Assembly: GCF_009914755.1 (NCBI RefSeq)
Contig: NC_060926.1
Reading direction: 5' to 3' (one strand)
Length of the DNA stretch: 64,000 bases
Origin: the human T2T-CHM13v2.0 reference genome, Homo sapiens
The position numbers were made by a program, and so were the translations under genes. Positions within the stretch are counted from its first letter, which is position 1. Each line of letters begins with the position of its first letter. The notes beneath the pieces are model-generated. The model did no database searches, was not told the origin of the DNA, and worked only from the letters and a program-made list of their open reading frames with translations. Positions 1 to 64,000 of the stretch are shown here, one piece after another.

Positions 1-21
1 CCCCTGAAAACTAGACAGAAG

Positions 22-1352: not shown

Positions 1353-1380
1353 ATATCTTCCCCTGAAAACTACACAGAAG

Positions 1381-37869: not shown

Positions 37870-40800
37870 ATATAAAAAGCAGCCAGCAGCGTTCCCAGAA
37901 ACTTCTTTGTGATGTTTGCATTCAAGTCACAGAGTTGAACATTCCCTTTCATAGAGCAGGTTTGAAACACTCTTTTTGTAGTATCTGGTTGTGGACATTT
38001 GCAGCGCTTTCAGGCCTAAGGTGAAAAAGGAAATATCTTCCCCTGAAAACTAGACAGAAGCATTCTCAGAAAGTTATTTGTGATGTGCGCCCTCAACTAA
38101 CAGTGTTGAAGCTTTCTTTTGATAGAGCAGTTTTGAAACACTCTTTTTGTAATATCTGCAAGAGGATATTTGGACAGCTTTGAGGATTTCGTTGGAAACG
38201 GGATTGTCTTCATATAAACTCTAGACAGAAGCATTCTCAGAAGCTTCATTGGGATGTTTCAATTGAAGTCACAGTGTTGAACAGTTCCTTTCATAGAACA
38301 GGTTTGAAACACTCTTTTTGTAGTATCTGGAAGTGGACATTTGGAGCGCTCTCAGGACTATGGTGAAAAAGGAAATATCTTCCAATAAAAGCTACATAGA
38401 AGCAATGTCAGAAACTTTTTCATGATGTATCTACTCAGCTAACAGAGTTGAACCTTTCCTTTGAGAGAGCAGTTTTGAAACACTCTTTTTGTGGAATCTG
38501 CAAGTGGATATTTGTCTAGCTTTGAGGATTTCGTTGGAAACGGGATTACATATAAAAAGCAGACAGCAGCATTCCCAGTAACTTCTTTGTGATGTTTGCA
38601 TTCAAGACACAGAGTTGAACATTCCCTTTCATAGAGCAGGTTTGAAACACTCTTTTTGAAGTATCTGGATGTGGACATTTGGAGCGCTTTCAGGCCTATG
38701 GTGAAAAAGGAAATATCTTCCCCTGAAAACTAGACAGAAGCATTCTCAGAAACTTATTTGTGATGTGCGCCCTCAACTAACAGTGTTGAACCTTTCTTTT
38801 GATAGAACAGTTTTGAAACACTCTTTTTGTAATATCTGCAAGAGGATATTTGGATAGCTTTGAGGATTTCGTTGGAAACGGGATTGTCTTCATATAAACT
38901 CTAGACAGAAGCATTCTCAGAAGCTTCATTGGGATGTTTCAATTGAAGTCACAGTGTTGAACAGTCCCTTTCATAGAGCAGGTTTGAAACACTCTTTTTG
39001 TAGTATCTGGAAGTGGACATTTGGAGCGCTCTCAGGACTACGGTGATAAAGGAAATATCTTCCAATAAAAGCTACATAGAAGCAATGTCAGAAACTTTTT
39101 CATGATGTATCTACTCAGCTAACAGAGTTGAACCTTTCTTTTGAGAGAGCAGTATTGAAACACTCTTTTTGTGGAATCTGCAAGTGGATATTTGTCTAGC
39201 TTTCAGGATTTCGTTGGAAACAGGATTACATATAAAAAGCAGACAGCAGCATTCCCAGAAACTTCTTTGTGATGTTTGCATTCAAGTCACAGAGTTGAAC
39301 ATTCCCTTTCATAGAGCAGGTTTGAAACACTCTTTTTGTAGTATCTGGATGTGGACATTTGGAGCGCTTTCAGGCCTATGGTGAAAAAGGAAATATCTTC
39401 CCCTGAAAACTAGACAGAAGCATTCTCAGAATTTTATTTGTGATGTGCGCCCTCAACTAACAGTGTTGAAGCTTTCTTTTGATACAGCAGTTTTGAAACA
39501 CTCTTTTTGTAAAATCTGCTAGAGGATATTTGGATAGCTTTGAGGATTTCTTTGGAAACGGGATTGTCTTCATATAAACTCTAGACAGAAGCATTCTCAG
39601 ATGCTTCATTGGGATGTTTCAATTGAAGTCACAGTGTTGAACAGTCCCTTTCATAGAGCAGGTTTGAAACACTCTTTTTGTAGTATCTGGATGTGGACAT
39701 TTGGAGCGCTTTCAGGCCTATGGTGAAAAAGGAAATATCTTCCCCTGAAAACTAGACAGAAGCATTCTCAGAAACTTATTTGTGATGTGCCCCCTCAACT
39801 AACAGTGTTGAAGCTTTCTTTTGATAGAGCAGTTTTGAAACACTCTTTTTGTGGAATCTGCAAGTGGATATTTGTCTAGCTTTGAGGATTTCGTTGGAAA
39901 CGGGATTACATATAAAAAGCAGACAGCAGCATTCCCAGAATCTTCTTTGTGATGTTTGCATTCAAGTCACAGAGTTGAACATTCCCTTTCATAGAGCAGG
40001 TTTGAAACACTCTTTTTGTAGTATCTCGATGTGGACATTTGGAGCGCTTTCAGGCCTATGGTGAAAAAGGAAATATCTTCTCCTGAAAACTAGACAGAAG
40101 CATTCTCAGAATCTTATTTGTGATGTGCGCCCTCAACTAACAGTGTTGAAGCTTTCTTTTGATAGAGCAGTTTTGAAACACTCTTTTTGTAAAATCTGCA
40201 AGAGGATATTTGCATAGCTTTGAGGATTTCATTGGAAACGGGATTGTCTTCATATAAACTCTAGACAGAAGCATTCTCAGAAGCTTCATTGGGATGTTTC
40301 AATTGAAGTCACAGTGTTGAACAGTCCCTTTCATAGAGCAGGTTTGAAACACTCTTTTTGTAGTATCTGGAAGTGGACATTTGGAGCGCTCTCAGGACTA
40401 CGGTGAAAAAGGAAATATCTTCCAATAAAAGCTACATAGAAGCAATGTCAGAAACTTTTTCATGATGTATCTACTCAGCTAACAGAGTTGAACCTTTCTT
40501 TTGAGAGAGCAGTTTTGAAACACTCTTTTTGTGGAATCTGCAAGTGGATATTTGTCTAGCTTTGAGGATTTCGTTGGAAACAGGATTACATATAAAAAGC
40601 AGACAGCAGCATTCCCAGAAACTTCTTTGTGATGTTTGCATTCAAGTCACAGAGTTGAACATTCCCTTTCATAGAGCAGGTTTGAAACACTCTTTTTGTA
40701 GTATCTGGATGTGGACATTTGGAGCGCTTTCAGGCCTATGGTGAAAAAGGAAATATCTTCCTCTGAAAACTAGACAGAAGCATTCTCAGAATTTTATTTG

Positions 40801-43800
40801 TGATGTGCGCCCTCAACTAACAGTGTTGAAGCTTTCTTTTGATAGAGCAGTTTTGAAACACTCTTTTTGTAAAATCTGCTAGAGGATATTTGGATAGCTT
40901 TGAGGATTTCTTTGGAAACGGGATTGTCTTCATATAAACTCTAGACAGAAGCATTCTCAGATGCTTCATTGGGATGTTTCAATTGAAGTCACAGTGTTGA
41001 ACAGTCCCATTCATAGAGCAGGTTTGAAACACTCTTTTTGTAGTATCTGGATGTGGACATTTGGAGCGCTTTCAGGCCTATGGTAAAAAAGGAAATATCT
41101 TCCCCTGAAAACTAGACAGAAGCATTCTCAGAAACTTATTTGTGATGTGCCCCCTCAACTAACAGTGTTGAAGCTTTCTTTTGATAGAGCAGTTTAGAAA
41201 CACTCTTTTTGTGGAATCTGCAAGTGGATATTTGTCTAGCTTTGAGGATTTCGTTGGAAACGGGATTACATATAAAAAGCAGACAGCAGCATTCCCAGAA
41301 TCTTCTTTGTGATGTTTGCATTCAAGTCACAGAGTTGAACATTCCCTTTCATAGAGCAGGTTTGAAACACTCTTTTTGTAGTATCTCGATGTGGACATTT
41401 GGAGCGCTTTCAGGCCTATGGTGAAAAAGGAAATATCTTCTCCTGAAAACTAGACAGAAGCATTCTCAGAATCTTATTTGTGATGTGCGCCCTCAACTAA
41501 CAGTGTTGAAGCTTTCTTTTGATAGAGCAGATTTGAAACACTCTTTTTGTAAAATCTGCAAGAGGATATTTGCATAGCTTTGAGGATTTCATTGGAAACG
41601 GGATTGTCTTCAAATAAACTCTAGACAGAAGCATTCTCAGAAGCTTCATTGGGATGTTTCAATTGAAGTCACAGTGTTGAACAGTCCCTTTCATAGAGCA
41701 GGTTTGAAACACTCTTTTTGTAGTATCTGGAAGTGGACATTTGGAGCGCTCTCAGGACTACGGTGAAAAAGGAAATATCTTCCAATAAAAGCTACATAGA
41801 AGCAATGTCAGAAACTTTTTCATGATGTATCTACTCAGCTAACAGAGTTGAACCTTTCTTTTGAGAGAGCAGTTTTGAAACACTCTTTTTGTGGAATCTG
41901 CAAGTGGATATTTGTCTAGCTTTGAGGATTTCGTTGGAAACAGGATTACATATAAAAAGCAGACAGCAGCATTCCCAGAAACTTCTTTGTGATGTTTACA
42001 TTCAAGTCACAGAGTTGAACATTCCCTTTCATAGAGCAGGTTTGAAACACTCTTTTTGTAGTATCTGGATGTGGACATTTGGAGCGCTTTCAGGCCTATG
42101 GTGAAAAAGGAAATATCTTCCCCTGAAAACTAGACAGAAGCATTCTCAGAATTTTATTTGTGATGTGCGCCCTCAACTAACAGTGTTGAAGCTTTCTTTT
42201 GATAGAGCAGTTTTGAAACACTCTTTTTGTAAAATCTGCTAGAGGATATTTGGATAGCTTTGAGGATTTCTTTGGAAACGGGATTGTCTTCATATAAACT
42301 CTAGACAGAAGCATTCTCAGATGCTTCATTGGGATGTTTCAATTGAAGTCACAGTGTTGAACAGTCCCTTTCATAGAGCAGGTTTGAAACACTCTTTTTG
42401 TAGTATCTGGATGTGGACATTTGGAGCGCTTTCAGGCCTATGGTGAAAAAGGAAATATCTTCCCCTGAAAACTAGACAGAAGCATTCTCAGAAACTTATT
42501 TGTGATGTGCCCCCTCAACTAACAGTGTTGAAGCTTTCTTTTGATAGAGCAGTTTTGAAACACTCTTTTTGTGGAATCTGCAAGTGGATATTTGTCTAGC
42601 TTTGAGGATTTCGTTGGAAACGGGATTACATATAAAAAGCAGACAGCAGCATTCCCAGAATCTTCTTTGTGATGTTTGCATTCAAGTCACAGAGTTGAAC
42701 ATTCCCTTTCATAGAGCAGGTTTGAAACACTCTTTTTGTAGTATCTCGATGTGGACATTTGGAGCGCTTTCAGGCCTATGGTGAAAAAGGAAATATCTTC
42801 TCCTGAAAACTAGACAGAAGCATTCTCAGAATCTTATTTGTGATGTGCGCCCTCAACTAACAGTGTTGAAGCTTTCTTTTGATAGAGCAGATTTGAAACA
42901 CTCTTTTTGTAAAATCTGCAAGAGGATATTTGCATAGCTTTGAGGATTTCATTGGAAACGGGATTGTCTTCAAATAAACTCTAGACAGAAGCATTCTCAG
43001 AAGCTTCATTGGGATGTTTCAATTGAAGTCACAGTGTTGAACAGTCCCTTTCATAGAGCAGGTTTGAAACACTCTTTTTGTAGTATCTGGAAGTGGACGT
43101 TTGGAGCGCTCTCAGGACTACGGTGAAAAAGGAAATATCTTCCAATAAAAGCTACATAGAAGCAATGTCAGAAACTTTTTCATGATGTATCTACTCAGCT
43201 AACAGAGTTGAACCTTTCTTTTGAGAGAGAAGTTTTGAAACACTCTTTTTGTGGAATCTGCAAGTGGATATTTGTCTAGCTTTGAGGATTTCGTTGGAAA
43301 CGGGATTACATATAAAAAGCAGCCAGCAGCGTTCCCAGAAACTTCTTTGTGATGTTTGCATTCAAGTCACAGAGTTGAACATTCCCTTTCATAGAGCAGG
43401 TTTGAAACACTCTTTTTGTAGTATCTGGTTGTGGACATTTGCAGCGCTTTCAGGCCTAAGGTGAAAAAGGAAATATCTTCCCCTGAAAACTAGACAGAAG
43501 CATTCTCAGAAACTTATTTGTGATGTGCGCCCTCAACTAACAGTGTTGAAGCTTTCTTTTGATAGAGCAGTTTTGAAACACTCTTTTTGTAATATCTGCA
43601 AGAGGATATTTGGACAGCTTTGAGGATTTCGTTGGAAACGGGATTGTCTTCATATAAACTCTAGACAGAAGCATTCTCAGAAGCTTCATTGGGATGTTTC
43701 AATTGAAGTCACAGTGTTGAACAGTTCCTTTCATAGAACAGGTTTGAAACACTCTTTTTGTAGTATCTGGAAGTGGACATTTGGAGCGCTCTCAGGACTA

Positions 43801-46800
43801 TGGTGAAAAAGGAAATATCTTCCAATAAAAGCTACATAGAAGCAATGTCAGAAACTTTTTCATGATGTATCTACTCAGCTAACAGAGTTGAACCTTTCCT
43901 TTGAGAGAGCAGTTTTGAAACACTCTTTTTGTGGAATCTGCAAGTGGATATTTGTCTAGCTTTGAGGATTTGGTTGGAAACGGGATTACATATAAAAAGC
44001 AGACAGCAGCATTCCCAGTAACTTCTTTGTGATGTTTGCATTCAAGACACAGAGTTGAACATTCCCTTTCATAGAGCAGGTTTGAAACACTCTTTTTGAA
44101 GTATCTGGATGTGGACATTTGGAGCGCTTTCAGGCCTATGGTGAAAAAGGAAATATCTTCCCCTGAAAACTAGACAGAAGCATTCTCAGAAACTTATTTG
44201 TGATGTGCGCCCTCAACTAACAGTGTTGAACCTTTCTTTTGATAGAACAGTTTTGAAACACTCTTTTTGTAATATCTGCAAGAGGATATTTGGATAGCTT
44301 TGAGGATTTCGTTGGAAACGGGATTGTCTTCATATAAACTCTAGACAGAAGCATTCTCAGAAGCTTCATTGGGATGTTTCAATTGAAGTCACAGTGTTGA
44401 ACAGTCCCTTTCATAGAGCAGGTTTGAAACACTCTTTTTGTAGTATCTGGAAGTGGACATTTGGAGCGCTCTCAGGACTACGGTGATAAAGGAAATATCT
44501 TCCAATAAAAGCTACATAGAAGCAATGTCAGAAACTTTTTCATGATGTATCTACTCAGCTAACAGAGTTGAACCTTTCTTTTGAGAGAGCAGTATTGAAA
44601 CACTCTTTTTGTGGAATCTGCAAGTGGATATTTGTCTAGCTTTCAGGATTTCGTTGGAAACAGGATTACATATAAAAAGCAGACAGCAGCATTCCCAGAA
44701 ACTTCTTTGTGATGTTTGCATTCAAGTCACAGAGTTGAACATTCCCTTTCATAGAGCAGGTTTGAAACACTCTTTTTGTAGTATCTGGATGTGGACATTT
44801 GGAGCGCTTTCAGGCCTATGGTGAAAAAGGAAATATCTTCCCCTGAAAACTAGACAGAAGCATTCTCAGAATTTTATTTGTGATGTGCGCCCTCAACTAA
44901 CAGTGTTGAAGCTTTCTTTTGATACAGCAGTTTTGAAACACTCTTTTTGTAAAATCTGCTAGAGGATATTTGGATAGCTTTGAGGATTTCTTTGGAAACG
45001 GGATTGTCTTCATATAAACTCTAGACAGAAGCATTCTCAGATGCTTCATTGGGATGTTTCAATTGAAGTCACAGTGTTGAACAGTCCCTTTCATAGAGCA
45101 GGTTTGAAACACTCTTTTTGTAGTATCTGGATGTGGACATTTGGAGCGCTTTCAGGCCTATGGTGAAAAAGGAAATATCTTCCCCTGAAAACTAGACAGA
45201 AGCATTCTCAGAAACTTATTTGTGATGTGCCCCCTCAACTAACAGTGTTGAAGCTTTCTTTTGATAGAGCAGTTTTGAAACACTCTTTTTGTGGAATCTG
45301 CAAGTGGATATTTGTCTAGCTTTGAGGATTTCGTTGGAAACGGGATTACATATAAAAAGCAGACAGCAGCATTCCCAGAATCTTCTTTGTGATGTTTGCA
45401 TTCAAGTCACAGAGTTGAACATTCCCTTTCATAGAGCAGGTTTGAAACACTCTTTTTGTAGTATCTCGATGTGGACATTTGGAGCGCTTTCAGGCCTATG
45501 GTGAAAAAGGAAATATCTTCTCCTGAAAACTAGACAGAAGCATTCTCAGAATCTTATTTGTGATGTGCGCCCTCAACTAACAGTGTTGAAGCTTTCTTTT
45601 GATAGAGCAGTTTTGAAACACTCTTTTTGTAAAATCTGCAAGAGGATATTTGCATAGCTTTGAGGATTTCATTGGAAACGGGATTGTCTTCATATAAACT
45701 CTAGACAGAAGCATTCTCAGAAGCTTCATTGGGATGTTTCAATTGAAGTCACAGTGTTGAACAGTCCCTTTCATAGAGCAGGTTTGAAACACTCTTTTTG
45801 TAGTATCTGGAAGTGGACATTTGGAGCGCTCTCAGGACTACGGTGAAAAAGGAAATATCTTCCAATAAAAGCTACATAGAAGCAATGTCAGAAACTTTTT
45901 CATGATGTATCTACTCAGCTAACAGAGTTGAACCTTTCTTTTGAGAGAGCAGTTTTGAAACACTCTTTTTGTGGAATCTGCAAGTGGATATTTGTCTAGC
46001 TTTGAGGATTTCGTTGGAAACAGGATTACATATAAAAAGCAGACAGCAGCATTCCCAGAAACTTCTTTGTGATGTTTGCATTCAAGTCACAGAGTTGAAC
46101 ATTCCCTTTCATAGAGCAGGTTTGAAACACTCTTTTTGTAGTATCTGGATGTGGACATTTGGAGCGCTTTCAGGCCTATGGTGAAAAAGGAAATATCTTC
46201 CTCTGAAAACTAGACAGAAGCATTCTCAGAATTTTATTTGTGATGTGCGCCCTCAACTAACAGTGTTGAAGCTTTCTTTTGATAGAGCAGTTTTGAAACA
46301 CTCTTTTTGTAAAATCTGCTAGAGGATATTTGGATAGCTTTGAGGATTTCTTTGGAAACGGGATTGTCTTCATATAAACTCTAGACAGAAGCATTCTCAG
46401 ATGCTTCATTGGGATGTTTCAATTGAAGTCACAGTGTTGAACAGTCCCATTCATAGAGCAGGTTTGAAACACTCTTTTTGTAGTATCTGGATGTGGACAT
46501 TTGGAGCGCTTTCAGGCCTATGGTAAAAAAGGAAATATCTTCCCCTGAAAACTAGACAGAAGCATTCTCAGAAACTTATTTGTGATGTGCCCCCTCAACT
46601 AACAGTGTTGAAGCTTTCTTTTGATAGAGCAGTTTAGAAACACTCTTTTTGTGGAATCTGCAAGTGGATATTTGTCTAGCTTTGAGGATTTCGTTGGAAA
46701 CGGGATTACATATAAAAAGCAGACAGCAGCATTCCCAGAATCTTCTTTGTGATGTTTGCATTCAAGTCACAGAGTTGAACATTCCCTTTCATAGAGCAGG

Positions 46801-49800
46801 TTTGAAACACTCTTTTTGTAGTATCTCGATGTGGACATTTGGAGCGCTTTCAGGCCTATGGTGAAAAAGGAAATATCTTCTCCTGAAAACTAGACAGAAG
46901 CATTCTCAGAATCTTATTTGTGATGTGCGCCCTCAACTAACAGTGTTGAAGCTTTCTTTTGATAGAGCAGATTTGAAACACTCTTTTTGTAAAATCTGCA
47001 AGAGGATATTTGCATAGCTTTGAGGATTTCATTGGAAACGGGATTGTCTTCAAATAAACTCTAGACAGAAGCATTCTCAGAAGCTTCATTGGGATGTTTC
47101 AATTGAAGTCACAGTGTTGAACAGTCCCTTTCATAGAGCAGGTTTGAAACACTCTTTTTGTAGTATCTGGAAGTGGACATTTGGAGCGCTCTCAGGACTA
47201 CGGTGAAAAAGGAAATATCTTCCAATAAAAGCTACATAGAAGCAATGTCAGAAACTTTTTCATGATGTATCTACTCAGCTAACAGAGTTGAACCTTTCTT
47301 TTGAGAGAGCAGTTTTGAAACACTCTTTTTGTGGAATCTGCAAGTGGATATTTGTCTAGCTTTGAGGATTTCGTTGGAAACAGGATTACATATAAAAAGC
47401 AGACAGCAGCATTCCCAGAAACTTCTTTGTGATGTTTGCATTCAAGTCACAGAGTTGAACATTCCCTTTCATAGAGCAGGTTTGAAACACTCTTTTTGTA
47501 GTATCTGGATGTGGACATTTGGAGCGCTTTCAGGCCTATGGTGAAAAAGGAAATATCTTCCTCTGAAAACTAGACAGAAGCATTCTCAGAATTTTATTTG
47601 TGATGTGCGCCCTCAACTAACAGTGTTGAAGCTTTCTTTTGATAGAGCAGTTTTGAAACACTCTTTTTGTAAAATATGCTAGAGGATATTTGGATAGCTT
47701 TGAGGATTTCTTTGGAAACGGGATTGTCTTCATATAAACTCTAGACAGAAGCATTCTCAGATGCTTCATTGGGATGTTTCAATTGAAGTCACAGTGTTGA
47801 ACAGTCCCATTCATAGAGCAGGTTTGAAACACTCTTTTTGTAGTATCTGGATGTGGACATTTGGAGCGCTTTCAGGCCTATGGTAAAAAAGGAAATATCT
47901 TCCCCTGAAAACTAGACAGAAGCATTCTCAGAAACTTATTTGTGATGTGCCCCCTCAACTAACAGTGTTGAAGCTTTCTTTTGATAGAGCAGTTTAGAAA
48001 CACTCTTTTTGTGGAATCTGCAAGTGGATATTTGTCTAGCTTTGAGGATTTCGTTGGAAACGGGATTACATATAAAAAGCAGACAGCAGCATTCCCAGAA
48101 TCTTCTTTGTGATGTTTGCATTCAAGTCACAGAGTTGAACATTCCCTTTCATAGAGCAGGTTTGAAACACTCTTTTTGTAGTATCTCGATGTGGACATTT
48201 GGAGCGCTTTCAGGCCTATGGTGAAAAAGGAAATATCTTCTCCTGAAAACTAGACAGAAGCATTCTCAGAATCTTATTTGTGATGTGCGCCCTCAACTAA
48301 CAGTGTTGAAGCTTTCTTTTGATAGAGCAGATTTGAAACACTCTTTTTGTAAAATCTGCAAGAGGATATTTGCATAGCTTTGAGGATTTCATTGGAAACG
48401 GGATTGTCTTCAAATAAACTCTAGACAGAAGCATTCTCAGAAGCTTCATTGGGATGTTTCAATTGAAGTCACAGTGTTGAACAGTCCCTTTCATAGAGCA
48501 GGTTTGAAACACTCTTTTTGTAGTATCTGGAAGTGGACATTTGGAGCGCTCTCAGGACTACGGTGAAAAAGGAAATATCTTCCAATAAAAGCTACATAGA
48601 AGCAATGTCAGAAACTTTTTCATGATGTATCTACTCAGCTAACAGAGTTGAACCTTTCTTTTGAGAGAGCAGTTTTGAAACACTCTTTTTGTGGAATCTG
48701 CAAGTGGATATTTGTCTAGCTTTGAGGATTTCGTTGGAAACAGGATTACATATAAAAAGCAGACAGCAGCATTCCCAGAAACTTCTTTGTGATGTTTACA
48801 TTCAAGTCACAGAGTTGAACATTCCCTTTCATAGAGCAGGTTTGAAACACTCTTTTTGTAGTATCTGGATGTGGACATTTGGAGCGCTTTCAGGCCTATG
48901 GTGAAAAAGGAAATATCTTCCCCTGAAAACTAGACAGAAGCATTCTCAGAATTTTATTTGTGATGTGCGCCCTCAACTAACAGTGTTGAAGCTTTCTTTT
49001 GATAGAGCAGTTTTGAAACACTCTTTTTGTAAAATCTGCTAGAGGATATTTGGATAGCTTTGAGGATTTCTTTGGAAACGGGATTGTCTTCATATAAACT
49101 CTAGACAGAAGCATTCTCAGATGCTTCATTGGGATGTTTCAATTGAAGTCACAGTGTTGAACAGTCCCTTTCATAGAGCAGGTTTGAAACACTCTTTTTG
49201 TAGTATCTGGATGTGGACATTTGGAGCGCTTTCAGGCCTATGGTGAAAAAGGAAATATCTTCCCCTGAAAACTAGACAGAAGCATTCTCAGAAACTTATT
49301 TGTGATGTGCCCCCTCAACTAACAGTGTTGAAGCTTTCTTTTGATAGAGCAGTTTTGAAACACTCTTTTTGTGGAATCTGCAAGTGGATATTTGTCTAGC
49401 TTTGAGGATTTCGTTGGAAACGGGATTACATATAAAAAGCAGACAGCAGCATTCCGAGAATCTTCTTTGTGATGTTTGCATTCAAGTCACAGAGTTGAAC
49501 ATTCCCTTTCATAGAGCAGGTTTGAAACACTCTTTTTGTAGTATCTCGATGTGGACATTTGGAGCGCTTTCAGGCCTATGGTGAAAAAGGAAATATCTTC
49601 TCCTGAAAACTAGACAGAAGCATTCTCAGAATCTTATTTGTGATGTGCGCCCTCAACTAACAGTGTTGAAGCTTTCTTTTGATAGAGCAGATTTGAAACA
49701 CTCTTTTTGTAAAATCTGCAAGAGGATATTTGCATAGCTTTGAGGATTTCATTGGAAACGGGATTGTCTTCAAATAAACTCTAGACAGAAGCATTCTCAG

Positions 49801-50110
49801 AAGCTTCATTGGGATGTTTCAATTGAAGTCACAGTGTTGAACAGTCCCTTTCATAGAGCAGGTTTGAAACACTCTTTTTGTAGTATCTGGAAGTGGACGT
49901 TTGGAGCGCTCTCAGGACTACGGTGAAAAAGGAAATATCTTCCAATAAAAGCTACATAGAAGCAATGTCAGAAACTTTTTCATGATGTATCTACTCAGCT
50001 AACAGAGTTGAACCTTTCTTTTGAGAGAGAAGTTTTGAAACACTCTTTTTGTGGAATCTGCAAGTGGATATTTGTCTAGCTTTGAGGATTTCGTTGGAAA
50101 CGGGATTACA
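37870..50110 (+). repeat. Tandem duplication, 5440-bp (32-monomer) unit; second copy has one extra 1360-bp octamer (6800 bp)
   Basis: Offset 5440: agccagcagcgttcc 37881/43321, tggacagctt 38171/43611, caagacac ~38603/44043, gatacagcag 39481/44921. acagtcccat occurs three times (41001, 46441, 47801). Offset 6800: gatgtttaca 41991/48791, aagtggacgt 43091/49891. Confidence 0.9.
39421..40780 (+). repeat. Octamer HOR unit A'-(B/D)-(A/C)-D'-A''-B-C'-D (example)
   Basis: Monomer starts at 39421, 39592, 39763, 39930, 40101, 40272, 40443 and 40610; next unit at 40781. Boxes: 39547 TTCT broken, 39889 intact, 40227 TTCA broken, 40569 CAGG broken. Confidence 0.9.
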
Positions 50111-52678: not shown

Positions 52679-55600
52679 CATTCTCAGAATCTTATTTGTG
52701 ATGTGCGCCCTCAACTAACAGTGTTGAAGCTTTCTTTTGATAGAGCAGATTTGAAACACTCTTTTTGTAAAATCTGCAAGAGGATATTTGCATAGCTTTG
52801 AGGATTTCATTGGAAACGGGATTGTCTTCAAATAAACTCTAGACAGAAGCATTCTCAGAAGCTTCATTGGGATGTTTCAATTGAAGTCACAGTGTTGAAC
52901 AGTCCCTTTCATAGAGCAGGTTTGAAACACTCTTTTTGTAGTATCTGGAAGTGGACATTTGGAGAGATCTCAGGAATACGGTGATAAAGGAAATATCTTC
53001 CAATAAAAGCTAGATAGAAGCAATGTCAGAAACTTTTTCATGATGTATCTACTCAGCTAACAGAGTTGAACCTTTCTTTTGAGAGAGCAGTTTTGAAACA
53101 CTCTTTTTGTGGAATCTGCAAGTGGATATTTGTCTAGCTTTGAGGATTTCGTTGGAAACAGGATTACATATAAAAAGCAGACAGCAGCATTCCCAGAAAC
53201 TTCTTTGTGATGTTTGCATTCAAGTCACAGAGTTGAACATTCCCTTTCATAGAGCAGGTTTGAAACACTCTTTTTGTAGTATCTGGATGTGGACATTTGG
53301 AGCGCTTTCAGGCCTATGGTGAAAAAGGAAATATCTTCCCCTGAAAACTAGACAGAAGCATTCTCAGAATTTTATTTGTGATGTGCGCCCTCAACTAACA
53401 GTGTTGAAGCTTTCTTTTGATAGAGCAGTTCTGAAACACTCTTTTTGTAAAATCTGCTAGAGGATATTTGGATAGCTTTGAGGATTTCTTTGGAAACGGG
53501 ATTGTCTTCATATAAACTCTAGACAGAAGCATTCTCAGATGCTTCATTGGGATGTTTCAATTGAAGTCACAGTGTTGAACAGTCCCTTTCATAGAGCAGG
53601 TTTGAAACACTCTTTTTGTAGTATCTGGATGTGGACATTTGGAACGCTTTCAGGCCTATGGTGAAAAAGGAAATATCTTCCCCTGAAAACTAGACAGAAG
53701 CATTCTCAGAAACTTATTTGTGATGTGCCCCCTCAACTAACAGTGTTGAAGCTTTCTTTTGATAGAGCAGTTTTGAAACACTCTTTTTGTGGAATCTGCA
53801 AGTGGATATTTGTCTAGCTTTGAGGATTTCGTTGGAAACGGGATTACATATAAAAAGCAGACAGCAGCATTCCCAGAATCTTCTTTGTGATGTTTGCATT
53901 CAAGTCACAGAGTTGAACATTCCCTTTCATAGAGCAGGTTTGAAACACTCTTTTTGTAGTATCTCGATGTGGACATTTGGAGCGCTTTCAGGCCTATGGT
54001 GAAAAAGGAAATATCTTCTCCTGAAAACTAGACAGAAGCATTCTCAGAATCTTATTTGTGATGTGCGCCCTCAACTAACAGTGTTGAAGCTTTCTTTTGA
54101 TAGAGCAGATTTGAAACACTCTTTTTGTAAAATCTGCAAGAGGATATTTGCATAGCTTTGAGGATTTCATTGGAAACGGGATTGTCTTCAAATAAACTCT
54201 AGACAGAAGCATTCTCAGAAGCTTCATTGGGATGTTTCAATTGAAGTCACAGTGTTGAACAGTCCCTTTCATAGAGCAGGTTTGAAACACTCTTTTTGTA
54301 GTATCTGGAAGTGGACATTTGGAGCGCTCTCAGGACTACGGTGAAAAAGGAAATATCTTCCAATAAAAGCTACATAGAAGCAATGTCAGAAACTTTTTCA
54401 TGATGTATCTACTCAGCTAACAGAGTTGAACCTTTCTTTTGAGAGAGCAGTTTTGAAACACTCTTTTTGTGGAATCTGCAAGTGGATATTTGTCTAGCTT
54501 TGAGGATTTCGTTGGAAACGGGATTACATATAAAAAGCAGACAGCAGCATTCCCAGTAACTTCTTTGTGATGTTTGCATTCAAGTCACAGAGTTGAACAT
54601 TCCCTTTCATAGAGCAGGTTTGAAACACTCTTTTTGTAGTATCTGGATGTGGACATTTGGAGCGCTTTCAGGCCTATGGTGAAAAAGGAAATATCTTCCC
54701 CTGAAAACTAGACAGAAGAATTCTCAGAATCTTATTTGTGATGTGCGCCCTCAACTAACAGTGTTGAAGCTTTCTTTTGATAGAGCAGTTTTGAAACACT
54801 CTTTTTGTAAAATCTGCAAGAGGATATTTGCATAGCTTTGAGGATTTCGTTGGAAACGGGATTGTCTTCATATAAACTCTAGACAGAAGCATTCTCAGAA
54901 GCGTCATTGGGATGTTTCAATTGAAGTCACAGTGTTGAACAGTCCCTTTCATAGAGCAGGTTTGAAACACTCTTTTTGTAGTATCTGGATGTGGACATTT
55001 GGAGCGCTTTCAGGCCTATGGTTTAAAAGGAAATATCTTCCCCTGAAAACTAGACAGAAGCATTCTCAGAAACTTATTTGTGATGTGCGCCCTCAACTAA
55101 CAGTGTTGAAGCATTCTTTTGATAGAGCAGTATTGAAACACTCTTTTTGTGGAATCTGCAAGTGGATATTTGTCTAGCTTTGAGGATTTCGTTGGAAAAG
55201 GAATTACATATAAAAAGCAGACAGCAGCATTCCCAGAAACTTCTTTGTGATGTTTGCATTCAAGTCACAGGGTTGAACATTCCCTTTCATAGAGCAGGTT
55301 TGAAACACTCTTTTTGTAGTATCTGGATGTGGACATTTGGAGCGCTTTCAGGCCTATGGTGAAAAAGGAAATATCTTCCCCTGAAAACTAGACAGAAGCA
55401 TTCTCAGAAACTTATTTGTGATGTGCGCCCTCAACTAACAGTGTTGAAGCTTTCTTTTGATAGAGCAGTTTTCAAACACTCTTTTTGTAAAATCTGCAAG
55501 AGGATATTTGGATAGCTTTGAGGATTTCGTTGGAAACGGGATTGTCTTCATATAAACTCTAGACAGAAGCATTCTCAGAAGCTTCATTGGGATGTTTCAA

Positions 55601-58600
55601 TTGAAGTCACAGTGTTGAACAGTCCCTTTCATAGAGCAGGTTTGAAACACTCTTTTTGTAGTATCTGGAAGTGGACATTTGGAGAGATCTCAGGAATACG
55701 GTGATAAAGGAAATATCTTCCAATAAAAGCTAGATAGAAGCAATGTCAGAAACTTTTTCATGATGTATCTACTCAGCTAACAGAGTTGAACCTTTCTTTT
55801 GAGAGAGCAGTTTTGAAACACTCTTTTTGTGGAATCTGCAAGTGGATATTTGTCTAGCTTTGAGGATTTCGTTGGAAACAGGATTACATATAAAAAGCAG
55901 ACAGCAGCATTCCCAGAAACTTCTTTGTGATGTTTGCATTCAAGTCACAGAGTTGAACATTCCCTTTCATAGAGCAGGTTTGAAACACTCTTTTTGTAGT
56001 ATCTCGATGTGGACATTTGGAGCGCTTTCAGGCCTATGGTGAAAAAGGAAATATCTTCTCCTGAAAACTAGACAGAAGCATTCTCAGAACCTTATTTGTG
56101 ATGTGCGCCCTCAACTAACAGTGTTGAAGCTTTCTTTTGATAGAGCAGTTTTGAAACACTCTTTTTGTAAAATCTGCAAGAGGATATTTGCATAGCTTTG
56201 AGGATTTCATTGGAAACGGGATTGTCTTCATATAAACTCTAGACAGAAGCATTCTCAGAAGCTTCATTGGGATGTTTCCATTGAAGTCACAGTGTTGAAC
56301 AGTCCCTTTCATAGAGCAGGTTTGAAACACTCTTTTTGTAGTATCTGGAAGTGGACATTTGGAGCGCTCTCAGGACTACGGTGAAAAAGGAAATATCTTC
56401 CAATAAAAGCTACATAGAAGCAATGTCAGAAACTTTTTCATGATGTATCTACTCAGCTAACAGAGTTGAACCTTTCTTTTGAGAGAGCAGTTTTGAAACA
56501 CTCTTTTTGTGGAATCTGCAAGTGGATATTTGTCTAGCTTTGAGGATTTCGTTGGAAATAGGATTACATATAAAAAGCAGACAGCAGCATTCCCAGAAAC
56601 TTCTTTGTGATGTTTGCATTCAAGTCACAGAGTTGAACATTCCCTTTCATAGAGCAGGTTTGAAACACTCTTTTTGTAGTATCTGGATGTGGACATTTGG
56701 AGCGCTTTCAGGCCTATGGTGAAAAAGGAAATATCTTCCCCTGAAAATTAGACAGAAGCATTCTCAGAATTTTATTTGTGATGTGCGCCCTCAACTAACA
56801 GTGTTGAAGCTTTCTTGTGATAGAGCAGTTTTGAAACACTCTTTTTGTAAAATCTGCTAGAGAATATTTGGATAGCTTTGAGGATTTCTTTGGAAACGGG
56901 ATTTTCTTCATATAAACTCTAGACAGAAGCATTCTCAGATGCTTCATTGGGATGTTTCAATTGAAGTCACAGTATTGAACAGTCCCTTTCTTACAGCAGG
57001 TTTGAAACACTCTTTTTGTAGAATCTGGATGTGGACATTTGGAGCGCTTTCATGCCTATGGTGAAAAAGGAAATATCTTCCCCTGAAAACTAGACAGAAG
57101 CATTCTCAGAAACTTATTTGTGATGTGCCCCCTCAACTAACAGTGTTGAAGCTTTCTTTTGATAGAGCAGTTTTCAAACACTCTTTTTGTAAAATCTGCA
57201 AGAGGATATTTGGATAGCTTTGAGGATTTCGTTGGAAACGGGATTGTCTTCATATAAACTCTAGACAGAAGCATTCTCAGAAGCTTCATTGGGATGTTTC
57301 AATTGAAGTCACAGTGTTGAACAGTCCCTTTCATAGAGCAGGTTTGAAACACTCTTTTTGTAGTATCTGGAAGTGGACATTTGGAGAGATCTCAGGAATA
57401 CGGTGATAAAGGAAATATCTTCCAATAAAAGCTAGATAGAAGCAATGTCAGAAACTTTTTCATGATGTATCTACTCAGCTAACAGAGTTGAACCTTTCTT
57501 TTGAGAGAGCAGTTTTGAAACACTCTTTTTGTGGAATCTGCAAGTGGATATTTGTCTAGCTTTGAGGATTTCGTTGGAAACAGGATTACATATAAAAAGC
57601 AGACAGCAGCATTCCCAGAAACTTCTTTGTGATGTTTGCATTCAAGTCACAGAGTTGAACATTCCCTTTCATAGAGCAGGTTTGAAACACTCTTTTTGTA
57701 GTATCTGGATGTGGACATTTGGAGCGCTTTCAGGCCTATGGTGAAAAAGGAAATATCTTCCCCTGAAAACTAGACAGAAGCATTCTAAGAAACTTATTTG
57801 TGATGTGCGCCCTCAACTAACAGTGTTGAAGCTTTCTTTTGATAGAGCAGTTTTGAAACACTCTTTTTGTAAAATCTGCAAGAGGATATTTGGATAGCTT
57901 TGTGGATTTCTTTGGAAACGGGATTGTCTTCATATAAACTCTAGACAGAAGCATTCTCAGATGCTTCATTGGGATGTTTCAATTGAAGTCACAGTGTTGA
58001 ACAGTCCCTTTCATAGAGCAGGTTTGAAACACTCTTTTTGTAGTATCTGGATGTGGACATTTGGAGCGCTTTCAGGTCTATGGTGAAAAAGGAAATATCT
58101 TCCCCTGAAAACTAGACAGAAGCATTCTCAGAAACTTATTTGTGATGTGCCCCCTCAACTAACAGTGTTGAAGCTTTCTTTTGATAGAGCAGTTTTGAAA
58201 CACTCTTTTTGTGGAATCTGCAAGTGGATATTTGTCTAGCTTTGAGGATTTCGTTGGAAACGGGATTACATATAAAAAGCAGACAGCAGCATTCCCAGAA
58301 TCTTCTTTGTGATGTTTGCATTCAAGTCACAGAGTTGAACATTCCCTTTCATAGAGCAGGTTTGAAACACTCTTTTTGTAGTATCTCGATGTGGACATTT
58401 GGAGCGCTTTCAGGCCTATGGTGAAAAAGGAAATATCTTCTCCTGAAAACTAGACAGAAGCATTCTCAGAATCTTATTTGTGATGTGCGCCCTCAACTAA
58501 CAGTGTTGAAGCTTTCTTTTGATAGAGCAGTTTTGAAACACTCTTTTTGTAAAATCTGCAAGAGGATATTTGCATAGCTTTGAGGATTTCATTGGAAACG

Positions 58601-61600
58601 GGATTGTCTTCATATAAACTCTAGACAGAAGCATTCTCAGAAGCTTCATTGGGATGTTTCAATTGAAGTCACAGTGTTGAACAGTCCCTTTCATAGAGCA
58701 GGTTTGAAACACTCTTTTTGTAGTATCTGGAAGTGGACATTTGGAGCGCTCTCAGGACTACGGTGAAAAAGGAAATATCTTCCAATAAAAGCTACATAGA
58801 AGCAATGTCAGAAACTTTTTCATGATGTATGTACTCAGCTAACAGAGTTGAACCTTTCTTTTGAGAGAGCAGTTTTGAAACACTCTTTTTGTGGAATCTG
58901 CAAGTGGATATTTGTCTAGCTTTGAGAATTTCGTTGGAAACAGGATTACATATAAAAAGCAGACAGCAGCATTCCCAGAAACTTCTTTGTGATGTTTGCA
59001 TTCAAGTCACAGAGTTGAACATTCCCTTTCATAGAGCAGGTTTGAAACACTCTTTTTGTAGTATCTGGATGTGGACATTTGGAGCGCTTTCAGGCCTATG
59101 GTGAAAAAGGAAATATCTTCCCCTGAAAACTAGACAGAAGCATTCTCAGAATTTTATTTGTGATGTGCGCCCTCAACTAACAGTGTTGAAGCTTTCTTTT
59201 GATAGAGCAGTTTTGAAACACTCTTTTTGTAAAATCTGCTAGAGGATATTTGGATAGCTTTGAGGATTTCGTTGGAAACGGGATTGTCTTCATATAAACT
59301 CTAGACAGAAGCATTCTCAGATGCTTCATTGGGATGTTTCAATTGAAGTCACAGTGTTGAACAGTCCCTTTCATAGAGCAGGTTTGAAACACTCTTTTTG
59401 TAGTATCTGGATGTGGACATTTGGAGCGCTTTCAGGCCTATGGTGAAAAAGGAAATATCTTCCCCTGAAAACTAGACAGAAGCATTCTCAGAAACTTATT
59501 TCTGATGTGCCCCCTCAACTAACAGTGTTGAAGCTTTCTTTTGATAGAGCAGTTTTGAAACACTCTTTTTGTGGAATCTGCAAGTGGATATTTGTCTAGC
59601 TTTGAGGATTTCGTTGGAAACGGGATTACATATAAAAAGCAGACAGCAGCATTCCCAGAATCTTCTTTGTGATGTTTGCATTCAAGTCACAGAGTTGAAC
59701 ATTCCCTTTCATAGAGCAGGTTTGAAACACTCTTTTTGTAGTATCTCGATGTGGACATTTGGAGCGCTTTCAGGCCTATGGTGAAAAAGGAAATATCTTC
59801 TCCTGAAAACTAGACAGAAGCATTCTCAGAATCTTATTTGTGATGTGCGCTCTCAACTAACAGTGTTGAACCTTTCTTTTCATAGAGTAGTTTTGAAACA
59901 CTCTTTTTGTAAAATCTGCAAGAGGATATTTGCATAGCTTTGAGGATTTCATTGGAAACGGGATTGTCTTCATATAAACTCTAGACAGAAGCATTCTCAG
60001 AAGCTTCATTGGGATGTTTCAATTGAAGTCACAGTGTTGAACAGTCCCTTTCATAGAGCAGGTTTGAAACACTCTTTTTGTAGTATCTGGAAGTGGACAT
60101 TTGGAGCGCTCTCAGGACTACGGTGAAAAAGGAAATATCTTCCAATAAAAGCTACATAGAAGCAATGTCAGAAACTTTTTCATGATGTATCTACTCAGCT
60201 AACAGAGTTGAACCTTTCTTTTGAGAGAGCAGTTTTGAAACACTCTTTTTGTGGAATCTGCAAGTGGATATTTGTCTAGCTTTGAGGATTTCGTTGGAAA
60301 CAGGATTACATATAAAAAGCAGACAGCAGCATTCCCAGAAACTTCTTTGTGATGTTTGCATTCAAGTCACAGAGTTGAACATTCCCTTTCATAGAGCAGG
60401 TTTGAAACACTCTTTTTGTAGTATCTGGATGTGGACATTTGGAGCGCTTTCAGGCCTATGGTGAAAAAGGAAATATCTTCCCCTGAAAACTAGACAGAAG
60501 CATTCTCAGAATTTTATTTGTGATGTGCGCCCTCAACTAACAGTGTTGAAGCTTTCTTTTGATAGAGCAGTTTTGAAACACTCTTTTTGTAAAATCTGCT
60601 AGAGGATATTTCGATAGCTTTGAGGATTTCGTTGGAAACGGGATTGTCTTCATATAAACTCTAGACAGAAGCATTCTCAGATGCTTCATTGGGATGTTTC
60701 AATTGAAGTCACAGTGTTGAACAGTCCCTTTCATAGAGCAGGTTTGAAACACTCTTTTTGTAGTATCTGGATGTGGACATTTGGAGCGCTTTCAGGCCTA
60801 TGGTGAAAAAGGAAATATCTTCCCCTGAAAACTAGACAGAAGCATTCTCAGAAACTTATTTCTGATGTGCCCCCTCAACTAACAGTGTTGAAGCTTTCTT
60901 TTGATAGAGCAGTTTTGAAACACTCTTTTTGTGGAATCTGCAAGTGGATATTTGTCTAGCTTTGAGGATTTCGTTGGAAACGGGATTACATATAAAAAGC
61001 AGACAGCAGCATTCCCAGAATCTCCTTTGTGATGTTTGCATTCAAGTCACAGAGTTGAACATTCCCTTTCATAGAGCAGGTTTGAAACACTCTTTTTGTA
61101 GTATCTCGATGTGGACATTTGGAGCGCTTTCAGGCCTATGGTGAAAAAGGAAATATCTTCTCCTGAAAACTAGACAGAAGCATTCTCAGAATCTTATTTG
61201 TGATGTGCGCCCTCAACTAACAGTGTTGAAGCTATCTTTTGATAGAGCAGTTTTGAAACACTCTTTTTGTAAAATCTGCAAGAGGATATTTGCATAGCTT
61301 TGAGGATTTCATTGGAAACGGGATTGTCTTCATATAAACTCTAGACAGAAGCATTCTCAGAAGCTTCATTGGGATGTTTCAATTGAAGTCACAGTGTTGA
61401 ACAGTCCCTTTCATAGAGCAGGTTTGAAACACTCTTTTTGTAGTATCTGGAAGTGGACATTTGGAGCGCTCTCAGGACTACGGTGAAAAAGGAAATATCT
61501 TCCAATAAAAGCTACATAGAAGCAATGTCAGAAACTTTTTCATGATGTATCTACTCAGCTAACAGAGTTGAACCTTTCTTTTGAGAGAGCAGTTTTGAAA

Positions 61601-64000
61601 CACTCTTTTTGTGGAATCTGCAAGTGGATATTTGTCTAGCTTTGAGGATTTCGTTGGAAACAGGATTACATATAAAAAGCAGACAGCAGCATTCCCAGAA
61701 ACTTCTTTGTGATGTTTGCATTCAAGTCACAGAGTTGAACATTCCCTTTCATAGAGCAGGTTTGAAACACTCTTTTTGTAGTATCTGGATGTGGACATTT
61801 GGAGCGCTTTCAGGCCTATGGTGAAAAAGGAAATATCTTCCCCTGAAAACTAGACAGAAGCATTCTCAGAATTTTATTTGTGATGTGCGCCCTCAACTAA
61901 CAGTGTTGAAGCTTTCTTTTGATAGAGCAGTTTTGAAAAACTCTTTTTGTAAAATCTGCTAGAGGATATTTCGATAGCTTTGAGGATTTCGTTGGAAACG
62001 GGATTGTCTTCATATAAACTCTAGACAGAAGCATTCTCAGATGCTTCATTGGGATGTTTCAATTGAAGTCACAGTGTTGAACAGTCCCTTTCATAGAGCA
62101 GGTTTGAAACACTCTTTTTGTAGTATCTGGATGTGGACATTTGGAGCGCTTTCAGGCCTATGGTGAAAAAGGAAATATCTTCCCCTGAAAACTAGACAGA
62201 AGCATTCTCAGAAACTTATTTCTGATGTGCCCCCTCAACTAACAGTGTTGAAGCTTTCTTTTGATAGAGCAGTTTTGAAACACTCTTTTTGTGGAATCTG
62301 CAAGTGGATATTTGTCTAGCTTTGAGGATTTCGTTGGAAACGGGATTACATATAAAAAGCAGACAGCAGCATTCCCAGAATCTCCTTTGTGATGTTTGCA
62401 TTCAAGTCACAGAGTTGAACATTCCCTTTCATAGAGCAGGTTTGAAACACTCTTTTTGTAGTATCTCGATGTGGACATTTGGAGCGCTTTCAGGCCTATG
62501 GTGAAAAAGGAAATATCTTCTCCTGAAAACTAGACAGAAGCATTCTCAGAATCTTATTTGTGATGTGCGCCCTCAACTAACAGTGTTGAAGCTATCTTTT
62601 GATAGAGCAGTTTTGAAACACTCTTTTTGTAAAATCTGCAAGAGGATATTTGCATAGCTTTGAGGATTTCATTGGAAACGGGATTGTCTTCATATAAACT
62701 CTAGACAGAAGCATTCTCAGAAGCTTCATTGGGATGTTTCAATTGAAGTCACAGTGTTGAACAGTCCCTTTCATAGAGCAGGTTTGAAACACTCTTTTTG
62801 TAGTATCTGGAAGTGGACATTTGGAGCGCTCTCAGGACTACGGTGAAAAAGGAAATATCTTCCAATAAAAGCTACATAGAAGCAATGTCAGAAACTTTTT
62901 CATGATGTATCTACTCAGCTAACAGAGTTGAACCTTTCTTTTGAGAGAGCAGTTTTGAAACACTCTTTTTGTGGAATCTGCAAGTGGATATTTGTCTAGC
63001 TTTGAGGATTTCGTTGGAAACAGGATTACATATAAAAAGCAGACAGCAGCATTCCCAGAAACTTCTTTGTGATGTTTGCATTCAAGTCACAGAGTTGAAC
63101 ATTCCCTTTCATAGAGCAGGTTTGAAACACTCTTTTTGTAGTATCTGGATGTGGACATTTGGAGCGCTTTCAGGCCTATGGTGAAAAAGGAAATATCTTC
63201 CCCTGAAAACTAGACAGAAGCATTCTCAGAATTTTATTTGTGATGTGCGCCCTCAACTAACAGTGTTGAAGCTTTCTTTTGATAGAGCAGGTTTGAAACA
63301 CTCTTTTTGTAAAATCTGCTAGAGGATATTTGGATAGCTTTGAGGATTTCTTTGGAAACGGGATTGTCTTCATATAAACTCTAGACAGAAGCATTCTCAG
63401 ATGCTTCATTGGGATGTTTCAATTGAAGTCACAGTGTTGAACAGTCCCTTTCATAGAGCAGGTTTGAAACACTCTTTTTGTAGTATCTGGATGTGGACAT
63501 TTGGAGCGCTTTCAGGCCTATGGTGAAAAAGGAAATATCTTCCCCTGAAAACTAGACAGAAGCATTCTCAGAAACTTATTTCTGATGTGCCCCCTCAACT
63601 AACAGTGTTGAAGCTTTCTTTTGATAGAGCAGGTTTGAAACACTCTTTTTGTGGAATCTGCAAGTGGATATTTGTCTAGCTTTGAGGATTTCGTTGGAAA
63701 CGGGATTACATATAAAAAGCAGACAGCAGCATTCCCAGAATCTTCTTTGTGATGTTTGCATTCAAGTCACAGAGTTGAACATTCCCTTTCATAGAGCAGG
63801 TTTGAAACACTCTTTTTGTAGTATCTCGATGTGGACATTTGGAGCGCTTTCAGGCCTATGGTGAAAAAGGAATTATCTTCTCCTGAAAACTACACAGAAG
63901 CATTCTCAGAATCTTATTTGTGATGTGCGCCCTCAACTAACAGTGTTGAAGCTTTCTTTTGATAGAGCAGTTTTGAAACATTCTTTTTGTAAAATCTGCA

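What the first reader, a model, noticed from the sequence alone, without database searches (positions are those of the whole stretch)
39209..64000. Expanding octamer HOR that has lost three of four CENP-B boxes
Seen: in the 1360-bp unit the four box sites read tttcTttggaaacggga (39547), intact (39889), tttcAttggaaacggga (40227) and tttcgttggaaacAgga (40569), and this pattern repeats. By manual count 29 of 73 sites are intact after 39.2 kb, versus about 104 of 115 before. Established: TTCG and CGGG are essential for CENP-B binding. Inference: a young, homogenised variant with one functional box per 1360 bp instead of one per 340 bp is amplifying. Three of its roughly ten diagnostic substitutions hit essential box bases, which looks like enrichment. 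It could alter CENP-B occupancy, nucleosome phasing or CENP-A positioning. It may already be catalogued in T2T HOR-haplotype annotations.
Basis: partly seen in the sequence, partly recalled or inferred. Interest (0 to 1): 0.8.

Follow-up and report, generated by a model that had tools for sequence, protein, structure and literature searches.

The report
Local alpha-satellite patch with decayed CENP-B boxes
A 26-kb stretch of the human chromosome 2 centromere repeat array has lost most of its CENP-B protein binding sites because a few ordinary mutations rode along on recently duplicated repeat units; it is a small, local and probably harmless variant far from the working kinetochore.

Summary
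In detail: 104 of 115 box sites are intact before 39,209 and 29 of 73 after.

- **The 8-mer is older than the box losses.** The 1,360-bp unit is a structural variant of the 680-bp D2Z1 4-mer. It contains a hybrid dimer. It is common nearby with intact boxes: 20 of 49 octamers outside the patch have four intact boxes, and only 1 is gtBa (three boxes dead).
- **The three mutations are not new.** All three sit at CpG sites and already occur outside the patch, at 6–21% of the same octamer slots. Two are widespread across the array.
- **The box enrichment disappears.** Half of the unit's 16 CpGs lie in boxes. The naive P of 0.003 becomes 0.28 under a CpG-aware null.
- **The patch is small.** It ends about 1.4 kb beyond the window and covers about 26 kb, with 16 clean octamers. 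It lies about 1.87 Mb from the published CHM13 centromere dip region (PMC11060027).
- **It is recently duplicated.** A 5.44-kb block is repeated with 3 mismatches.

Verdict: ordinary CpG decay that hitchhiked on a local tandem duplication. CENP-B occupancy and methylation were not tested.

The parts
1..39208 (+). Box-rich part of the D2Z1 array. It is mostly Q-P 680-bp 4-mers, with Q-S-P (about 1,018 bp) 6-mers and scattered Q-P-R-P 8-mers. 104 of 115 box sites are intact.
39209..64000 (+). Box-poor patch of Q-P-R-P 1,360-bp octamers, with 29 of 73 box sites intact. It continues about 1.4 kb beyond the window, to about chr2:92,507,400. Over the whole patch 31 of 78 sites are intact.
39209..40568 (+). 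One typical octamer in P-R-P-Q register. P starts with the dead box CAGG (39209). R starts with the dead box TTCT (39547). P starts with an intact box (39889). Q starts with the dead box TTCA (40227).
39547..39888 (+). An R dimer, the hybrid that makes the unit an 8-mer. It is Q-like in alignment columns 1–145, P-like in about 146–285, and Q-like again from about 300. Of 48 P/Q diagnostic columns, 26 read q and 22 read p.
37849..43288 (+). Copy A of a 5,440-bp block made of two 4-mers plus three octamers.
43289..50088 (+). Copy B of the same block. It differs from copy A by 3 mismatches in 5,440 bp. It also carries one extra octamer (46,009–47,368 against 47,369–48,728) that differs from its neighbour by 1 bp.
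58929..63008 (+). Three octamers of the gBBa subtype, in which the R box is intact (2 of 4 boxes intact). Their R dimers share a private variant (242C) that is also found on TTCT-bearing R dimers.

Best explanation
This is a small local haplotype of the chromosome 2 active alpha-satellite array, named D2Z1 / S2C2H1L in the literature.

The unit is an existing 8-monomer structural variant of the 4-monomer HOR. It consists of four box-to-box dimers, Q-P-R-P. R is a Q dimer whose central third carries P sequence.

One lineage of this 8-mer combined three single-base changes. Each hits the G of a CpG inside a CENP-B box: TTCG>TTCA in Q, CGGG>CAGG in the P after Q, and TTCG>TTCT in R. All three already existed as variants in the array.

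That lineage was then copied by nested tandem duplications of multi-unit blocks. The mechanism (unequal exchange or break-induced replication) is inferred, not shown. The result is a patch of about 26 kb in which only about 40% of box sites keep the nine-base core.

Box loss is a passive by-product. Boxes hold half of all CpGs in this repeat, so CpG decay hits them first, and duplication multiplies whatever the copied unit carries.

Expected effect (inferred, not tested): lower CENP-B binding within the patch, and no measurable effect on the kinetochore. The kinetochore in CHM13 sits about 1.87 Mb away.
For: - **Structure.** There are three dimer classes, and R is a clean Q/P/Q mosaic.
- **The 8-mer predates box loss.** Of 49 octamers outside the patch, 20 have four intact boxes and only 1 is gtBa. 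Of 71 R dimers outside the patch, 57 start with the canonical box and 1 more keeps the core motif.
- **The variants already existed.** Frequencies of the three variants in the same slots of 53 reference octamers are 0.21, 0.06 and 0.17. TTCT with Q/R flank has 175 exact hits genome-wide; the first 100 listed are all on chr2, and 11 of them lie in the patch. TTCA with Q flank has 94 hits, 75 on chr2 and 15 of those in the patch. CAGG with P flank has 39 hits, 27 on chr2 and 16 of those in the patch.
- **CpG null.** Of 11 diagnostic substitutions, 4 are at CpG sites and 3 of those are in boxes. There are 16 CpGs per unit, 8 in boxes. Hypergeometric P is 0.285, against a naive P of 0.0026.
- **Box CpGs behave like other CpGs.** Distinct alleles per site are 1.75 for box CpGs, 1.92 for other CpGs and 0.94 elsewhere.
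- **Recent duplication.** A 5,440-bp block is repeated with 3 mismatches, and two adjacent octamers differ by 1 bp. 55% of patch dimers have an identical twin within the 264 kb, against 22% elsewhere. In the bin starting at 92,482,001 the figure is 86%.
- **Limits of the patch.** Per 10-kb bin, intact boxes are 9/29, 14/30 and 17/29 in the patch, and 20/28 to 29/29 in the other 24 bins of 264 kb. Eight spot samples across the array give 210 of 231 intact.
- **Distance from the kinetochore.** The chr2 CDR is at 94,370,512–94,542,621 (PMC11060027, Table 1, passage read).
Against: - Only 2 of the 4 CpG-site changes are transitions, the classic deamination product. The other two are G>T and G>C. 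Simple 5mC deamination therefore explains the pattern less neatly than 'CpG decay' suggests.
- Outside the patch, box CpGs are lost in fewer copies (82 of 1,424, 5.8%) than non-box CpGs (169 of 1,424, 11.9%). This could mean boxes are normally under some constraint. In that case the patch would be a real departure and not just neutral drift. These counts are of copies, not independent events.
- The most box-poor 10 kb is also the most recently duplicated 10 kb. My explanation treats this coincidence as chance.
- Only 344 kb of an array spanning at least 92.32–94.67 Mb was read.
- Methylation and CENP-B occupancy were not examined.
Confidence: 0.8

Rival explanations
1. An early stage of the HOR 'life cycle' in Rice's break-induced-replication model. 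A longer HOR (8-mer instead of 4-mer) gains an expansion advantage, accumulates CENP-B box mutations, and is beginning to take over part of the array.
For: The longer unit carries the box mutations and shows the most recent duplications in the 264 kb read. [quoted passage not shown]
Against: The same 8-mer is common with intact boxes, so greater length did not bring box loss with it. The patch is about 26 kb, bounded on both sides. It is far from the CDR, where that model places frequent BIR (PMC11060027). Box-rich blocks just past the patch (window coordinates about 68,786–75,585) also share long runs of private variants, which points to block duplication there too. I did not count mismatches for those blocks.
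Confidence: 0.1
2. Box loss is causal. Removing CENP-B binding locally changes chromatin or replication so that tandem duplication becomes more likely, or box loss is itself favoured by selection.
For: Only the coincidence of the lowest box density (9 of 29) with the highest share of identical twin dimers (86%) in the same 10-kb bin.
Against: This is one coincidence in one locus. The later two-thirds of the patch (bins 92,492,001 and 92,502,001) is box-poor (14/30 and 17/29) but has only background levels of identical twins (0.30 and 0.31, against 0.22 elsewhere). The box hits are not enriched once CpG content is modelled.
Confidence: 0.05
3. Assembly artefact: collapsed or mis-joined repeats in the reference produce an apparent run of near-identical box-poor units.
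For: None from my calls. Near-identical multi-kb repeats are the kind of sequence that is hard to assemble.
Against: The copies carry an orderly nested pattern of private variants and differ at a few positions. That pattern fits real duplicates, not a collapsed repeat. Read-level validation could not be done here.
Confidence: 0.03

Closest known systems
HOR haplotypes (HOR-haps) and HOR structural variants in T2T-CHM13 centromeres (Altemose et al., bioRxiv 10.1101/2021.07.12.452052; passages read)
   Same: It is a contiguous cluster of HOR copies that share diagnostic variants and a variant monomer order inside one active array. It shows local recent duplications. That work describes splitting active arrays into HOR-haps in general, and PMC9811134 (passages read) refers to older and younger HOR-haps on chr2.
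   Different: In that work the youngest HOR-haps usually lie in the middle of arrays and under CENP-A. This patch lies on the p-arm side, about 1.87 Mb from the CDR. I could not see the HOR-hap, structural-variant or CENP-B-box tracks or supplements, so I cannot say how this patch is labelled there.
Rice's BIR 'HOR life cycle' model, as summarised by Talbert and Henikoff (PMC8997354, section 5 read)
   Same: A longer HOR built from A/B dimers carries mutated CENP-B boxes and has expanded by block duplication.
   Different: The model puts expansion at the kinetochore core, which is not the case here. The 8-mer form also exists widely without box loss.
Box-poor alpha-satellite arrays such as the chromosome 21 alpha21-II array or DYZ3 on the Y (recalled, except that PMC8997354 states the Y lacks CENP-B boxes)
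   Same: Alpha satellite with few or no functional CENP-B boxes.
   Different: Those are whole arrays or families without boxes. This is a 26-kb island inside a box-rich active array. The boxes are lost by single-base changes and are still recognisable.

Membership tests
Alpha satellite SF2-type A/B dimeric HOR array (D2Z1 / S2C2H1L) | About 171-bp monomers arranged as about 340-bp dimers | tested here: met
   TRF finds periods 171 and 338 over 30,003–64,000. Box-to-box spacing is 338, 341 or 342 bp.
Alpha satellite SF2-type A/B dimeric HOR array (D2Z1 / S2C2H1L) | A CENP-B box in every second monomer, alternating with a pJalpha-type site | tested here: met
   There are 188 box-homologous sites, all on the + strand. 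There are 117 exact pJalpha motifs, all on the − strand. PMC9549924 section 16 names S2C2H1L as one of the SF2 HORs with frequent pJalpha sites.
Alpha satellite SF2-type A/B dimeric HOR array (D2Z1 / S2C2H1L) | A 4-monomer (680-bp) canonical HOR on chromosome 2 | tested here: inconclusive
   Alternating Q-P dimers (338+342 bp) dominate the first domain and most samples. The location is chr2:92.44–92.51 Mb (hub annotation). I did not compare with a named reference HOR sequence, and the '4-mer' label is recalled.
Functional CENP-B box | The nine-base core NTTCGNNNNANNCGGGN (PMC4904201, passage read) | tested here: not met
   The core is met at 29 of 73 sites from 39,209 on and not met at 44 of 73. 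Actual binding and CpG methylation were not tested.
HOR-haplotype / structural-variant HOR | Copies share diagnostic variants, a variant monomer order and a contiguous location | tested here: met
   There are 11 diagnostic substitutions at 67–87% frequency in 15 patch octamers against 53 reference octamers. The hybrid dimer R defines the 8-mer. The patch is contiguous.
Kinetochore-associated zone of recent HOR expansion | Near-identical recent duplications | tested here: met
   A 5,440-bp block is repeated with 3 mismatches. 86% of dimers in one 10-kb bin have an identical twin.
Kinetochore-associated zone of recent HOR expansion | Overlap with the CDR / CENP-A peak | tested here: not met
   The published chr2 CDR is at 94,370,512–94,542,621 (PMC11060027, Table 1). 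The window ends at 92,506,000. The assembly version behind those coordinates was not checked.

The most novel reading that the evidence does not exclude
The patch may be a polymorphic, box-depleted and pJalpha-rich 8-mer haplotype caught early in its expansion. In other human chr2 centromere haplotypes it could occupy a large share of D2Z1. There it could lower CENP-B loading or shift where CENP-A sits. That would give a natural allelic series for testing how CENP-B box density affects centromere strength.
Probability: 0.08. Interest if true: 0.55.

Novelty: new member of a known kind. Interest (0 to 1): 0.22.

Why it matters
As it stands, it matters little. It covers about 1% of an array spanning at least 2.3 Mb and lies far from the kinetochore of this genome.

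It has three modest uses:
- It is a clean worked example of how CENP-B boxes are lost. Boxes hold half of the repeat's CpGs, so CpG decay hits them first, and block duplication multiplies the result.
- It shows that apparent 'targeting' of boxes must be tested against a CpG-aware null.
- It supplies a specific marker for population surveys of chr2 centromere haplotypes: the CAGG box variant with its P-dimer flank, followed 338 bp downstream by the TTCT variant.

Tried and rejected
- **First diagnostic list, superseded.** Using only in-window references gave 17 substitutions. The R reference had only 7 copies. I replaced it with 53 octamers from outside the patch, which gave 11.
- **K-mer dimer classifier, abandoned.** It left most dimers unclassified. 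I replaced it with an alignment-based mosaic call. Eight dimers of unusual length (outside 330–350 bp) were dropped before that alignment: 884 found, 876 aligned. The four later samples L025–L028 were scanned for boxes only and were not typed.
- **Ungapped whole-region lag scan, uninformative.** Phase shifts spoiled the search for large duplications. Reading per-dimer private variants worked instead.
- **TRF limit.** TRF cannot report periods above 500 bp, so it could not confirm 680 or 1,360 bp.
- **Allele-count measure saturates.** Singleton and rare-allele counts per site have at most 3 alleles per site, so they are only a rough check.
- I used two smaller samples instead.
- **Papers with nothing on this chr2 patch.** HORmon (PMC9248890, passages), HiCAT (PMC10053651, passages), PMC5052062 (term found only in references), PMC2173396 (passages), bioRxiv 10.64898/2026.07.22.740206 (passages) and PMC12350169 (one passage on mobile-element insertions in D2Z1).
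- **Papers and notes not available.** The journal version of Altemose et al. was not held. Earlier scan findings were not open.
- **Searches behind 'not found in print'.** Full-text searches for 'S2C2H1L' (5 papers), for 'D2Z1' with 'higher-order repeat' and 'T2T-CHM13', and for 'HOR-hap' with 'CENP-B box' and 'alpha satellite'. None of the listed papers I opened describes this patch. Supplements and browser tracks were not seen.
Full report
**1. The observation**

A scan for every 17-mer within three mismatches of the canonical box found 188 sites. All are on the + strand and are spaced 338, 341 or 342 bp apart.

The nine-base core is NTTCGNNNNANNCGGGN (PMC4904201, passage read). By that test, 104 of 115 sites are intact before 39,209 and 29 of 73 from 39,209 on.

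The dead boxes are almost all of three kinds. Window-wide there are 20 TTCA ('a'), 15 CAGG ('g') and 14 TTCT ('t').

**2. What the 1,360-bp unit is**

Box-to-box dimers fall into three classes:
- P: 338 bp, 98 copies.
- Q: 341 or 342 bp, 65 copies.
- R: 342 bp, 24 copies.

P and Q differ at about 55 alignment positions. R is about 31–33 positions from each. R is a clean mosaic. It is Q-like in columns 1–145, P-like in about 146–285, and Q-like again from about 300. Of 48 diagnostic columns, 26 read q and 22 read p.

The first domain is mostly Q-P (680 bp) with some 6-mers and scattered Q-P-R-P. The second domain is a run of Q-P-R-P. So the octamer is a structural variant with a hybrid dimer. 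It is not a pair of 4-mers told apart only by point changes.

In the patch the slots read as follows:

| Slot | Box state |
|---|---|
| Q | TTCA (dead) |
| P after Q | CAGG (dead) |
| R | TTCT (dead), or intact in some units |
| P after R | intact |

**3. Extent**

The window's own genome could be searched, and 280 kb of flanking and sample sequence was fetched.

In a contiguous 264 kb (chr2:92,322,001–92,586,000), intact boxes per 10-kb bin are 9/29, 14/30 and 17/29 in the patch. The other 24 bins range from 20/28 to 29/29.

The patch runs from 92,481,209 to about 92,507,400. It therefore ends about 1.4 kb past the window. Eight 10-kb spot samples between 92.75 and 94.45 Mb give 210 of 231 intact.

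So the patch is a real local outlier. It is about 26 kb of an array that spans at least 92.32–94.67 Mb.

**4. The octamer predates the box loss, and the variants already existed**

Of these, 20 have four intact boxes, 7 read BBBa, and only 1 reads gtBa. Inside the patch there are 16: 10 gtBa, 3 gBBa, 1 gtBB, 1 BBBB and 1 BBxB.

Against 53 reference octamers from outside the patch, the patch consensus (15 octamers) differs at 11 positions. The three box variants are already present in the same slots of the reference set at 0.21 (a), 0.06 (g) and 0.17 (t).

Exact 25-mer searches of the whole genome gave these counts:

| Variant and flank | Hits genome-wide | On chr2 | In the patch |
|---|---|---|---|
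| TTCT with Q/R flank | 175 | first 100 listed all on chr2, up to 94.06 Mb | 11 of the 100 listed |
| TTCA with Q flank | 94 | 75 | 15 |
| CAGG with P flank | 39 | 27 | 16 |

Two of the three changes are thus old and widespread. Only the CAGG variant is mainly local.

**5. The enrichment claim**

Three of the 11 diagnostic substitutions hit the 36 essential box bases of the 1,360-bp unit. The naive binomial P is 0.0026.

The reference octamer has 16 CpGs, and 8 of them are the two CpGs of each box. Four of the 11 substitutions are at CpG sites, and three of those are in boxes. P(at least 3 of 4 in boxes) is 0.285.

Box and non-box CpG sites also show similar allele diversity: 1.75 and 1.92 distinct alleles per site, against 0.94 elsewhere.

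Two caveats apply:
- Only two of the four CpG-site changes are transitions. The others are G>T and G>C.
- Outside the patch, box CpGs are lost in fewer copies than non-box CpGs: 82 of 1,424 against 169 of 1,424. This would fit mild constraint on boxes elsewhere. These are copy counts, not independent events.

**6. Is it young and amplifying?**

Locally, yes. Same-slot dimers in the patch differ by 1.0–1.6%, against 2.3–2.9% in the first domain.

Reading private variants unit by unit shows a 5,440-bp block at window 37,849–43,288, made of two 4-mers plus three octamers. It recurs at 43,289–50,088 with 3 mismatches. The second copy also has one extra octamer that differs from its neighbour by 1 bp.

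55% of patch dimers have an identical twin within the 264 kb, against 22% elsewhere. The bin at 92,482,001 reaches 86%. The later two-thirds of the patch is at background levels (0.30 and 0.31).

Box-rich blocks just beyond the patch also share long runs of private variants. I did not count their mismatches. The scale is small: 11 gtBa octamers in all the sequence typed.

**7. Position relative to the kinetochore**

A published table gives the CHM13 chr2 CDR as 94,370,512–94,542,621, with 378 boxes (2.20 per kb) (PMC11060027, passage read). That is about 1.87 Mb from the window. My 10-kb sample inside that interval has 25 of 30 intact.

PMC9811134 (passages read) reports that CHM13 CENP-A on S2C2H1L sits on an older HOR-hap at a zone of recent expansion. 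By those coordinates that is not this patch.

Effects on CENP-B occupancy, phasing or CENP-A were not tested.

**8. Comparison with what is known**

The kind is known:
- HOR structural variants and HOR-haps within active arrays (bioRxiv 10.1101/2021.07.12.452052, passages read).
- The idea that longer HORs tend to pick up CENP-B box mutations and expand by block duplication (Rice's model, as summarised in PMC8997354, section 5 read).

I found no text describing this particular patch. I could not see supplements or browser tracks, where it is probably implicit.

**9. Verdict**

The explanation is ordinary: CpG-site variants that already existed in the array hitchhiked on a small, recent, local tandem duplication of an existing 8-mer variant, far from the active kinetochore.

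Noticed in passing
window 1-64000, − strand; wider view chr2:92,322,001-92,586,000: The pJalpha-type motif (TTCCTTTTYCACCRTAG) changes in the opposite direction to the boxes. There are 55 exact motifs before 39,209 (1.4 per kb) and 62 after (2.5 per kb). In 10-kb bins the patch has 25/30, 23/29 and 28/29 intact, against about 40–60% in 4-mer-rich bins. The box-intact octamer region at 92.352–92.392 Mb also has 80–87%, so this is a property of the 8-mer structure (R carries P's A-type segment) and not of box loss.
   Followed up: partly
window 58929-63688 and chr2:92,515,204 (outside the window): R dimers that share the private variant 242C occur both with the TTCT box and with an intact box. 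This implies either a reversion or gene conversion of the box, or a recurrent mutation, within one sub-lineage.
   Followed up: no
window 26976 and 34792: The same TTCG>TTCT change also occurs twice in P dimers of the first domain. That is a different slot from the R dimers of the patch. So the change is either recurrent or was moved between paralogous boxes.
   Followed up: no
all mosaic dimers in chr2:92,322,001-92,586,000: Several further hybrid dimer classes exist: ppq 35, pqq 9 and qpp 8 copies. Their breakpoints fall in the two stretches that have no P/Q diagnostic sites. One of these stretches includes the CENP-B box itself, so exchange at or near the box cannot be excluded.
   Followed up: no
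chr9:45.46-45.49 Mb, chr18:15.6-21.0 Mb, chr20:26.39-26.88 Mb (genome hits, outside the window): The 25-mers carrying the dead-box variants also match related SF2-type arrays on other chromosomes: 4 on C9 and 8 on C18 for CAGG, and 13 on C20 for TTCA. The same CpG-site box changes therefore recur, or are shared, across related arrays.
   Followed up: no
chr2:92,322,001-92,342,000 (L020, L019): The leftmost 20 kb sampled has many dimers of mixed mosaic type and the highest nearest-neighbour distances, with a mean of 11.4 differences in bin 92,332,001. This fits an older, more diverged layer at the p-arm edge of the array.
   Followed up: no
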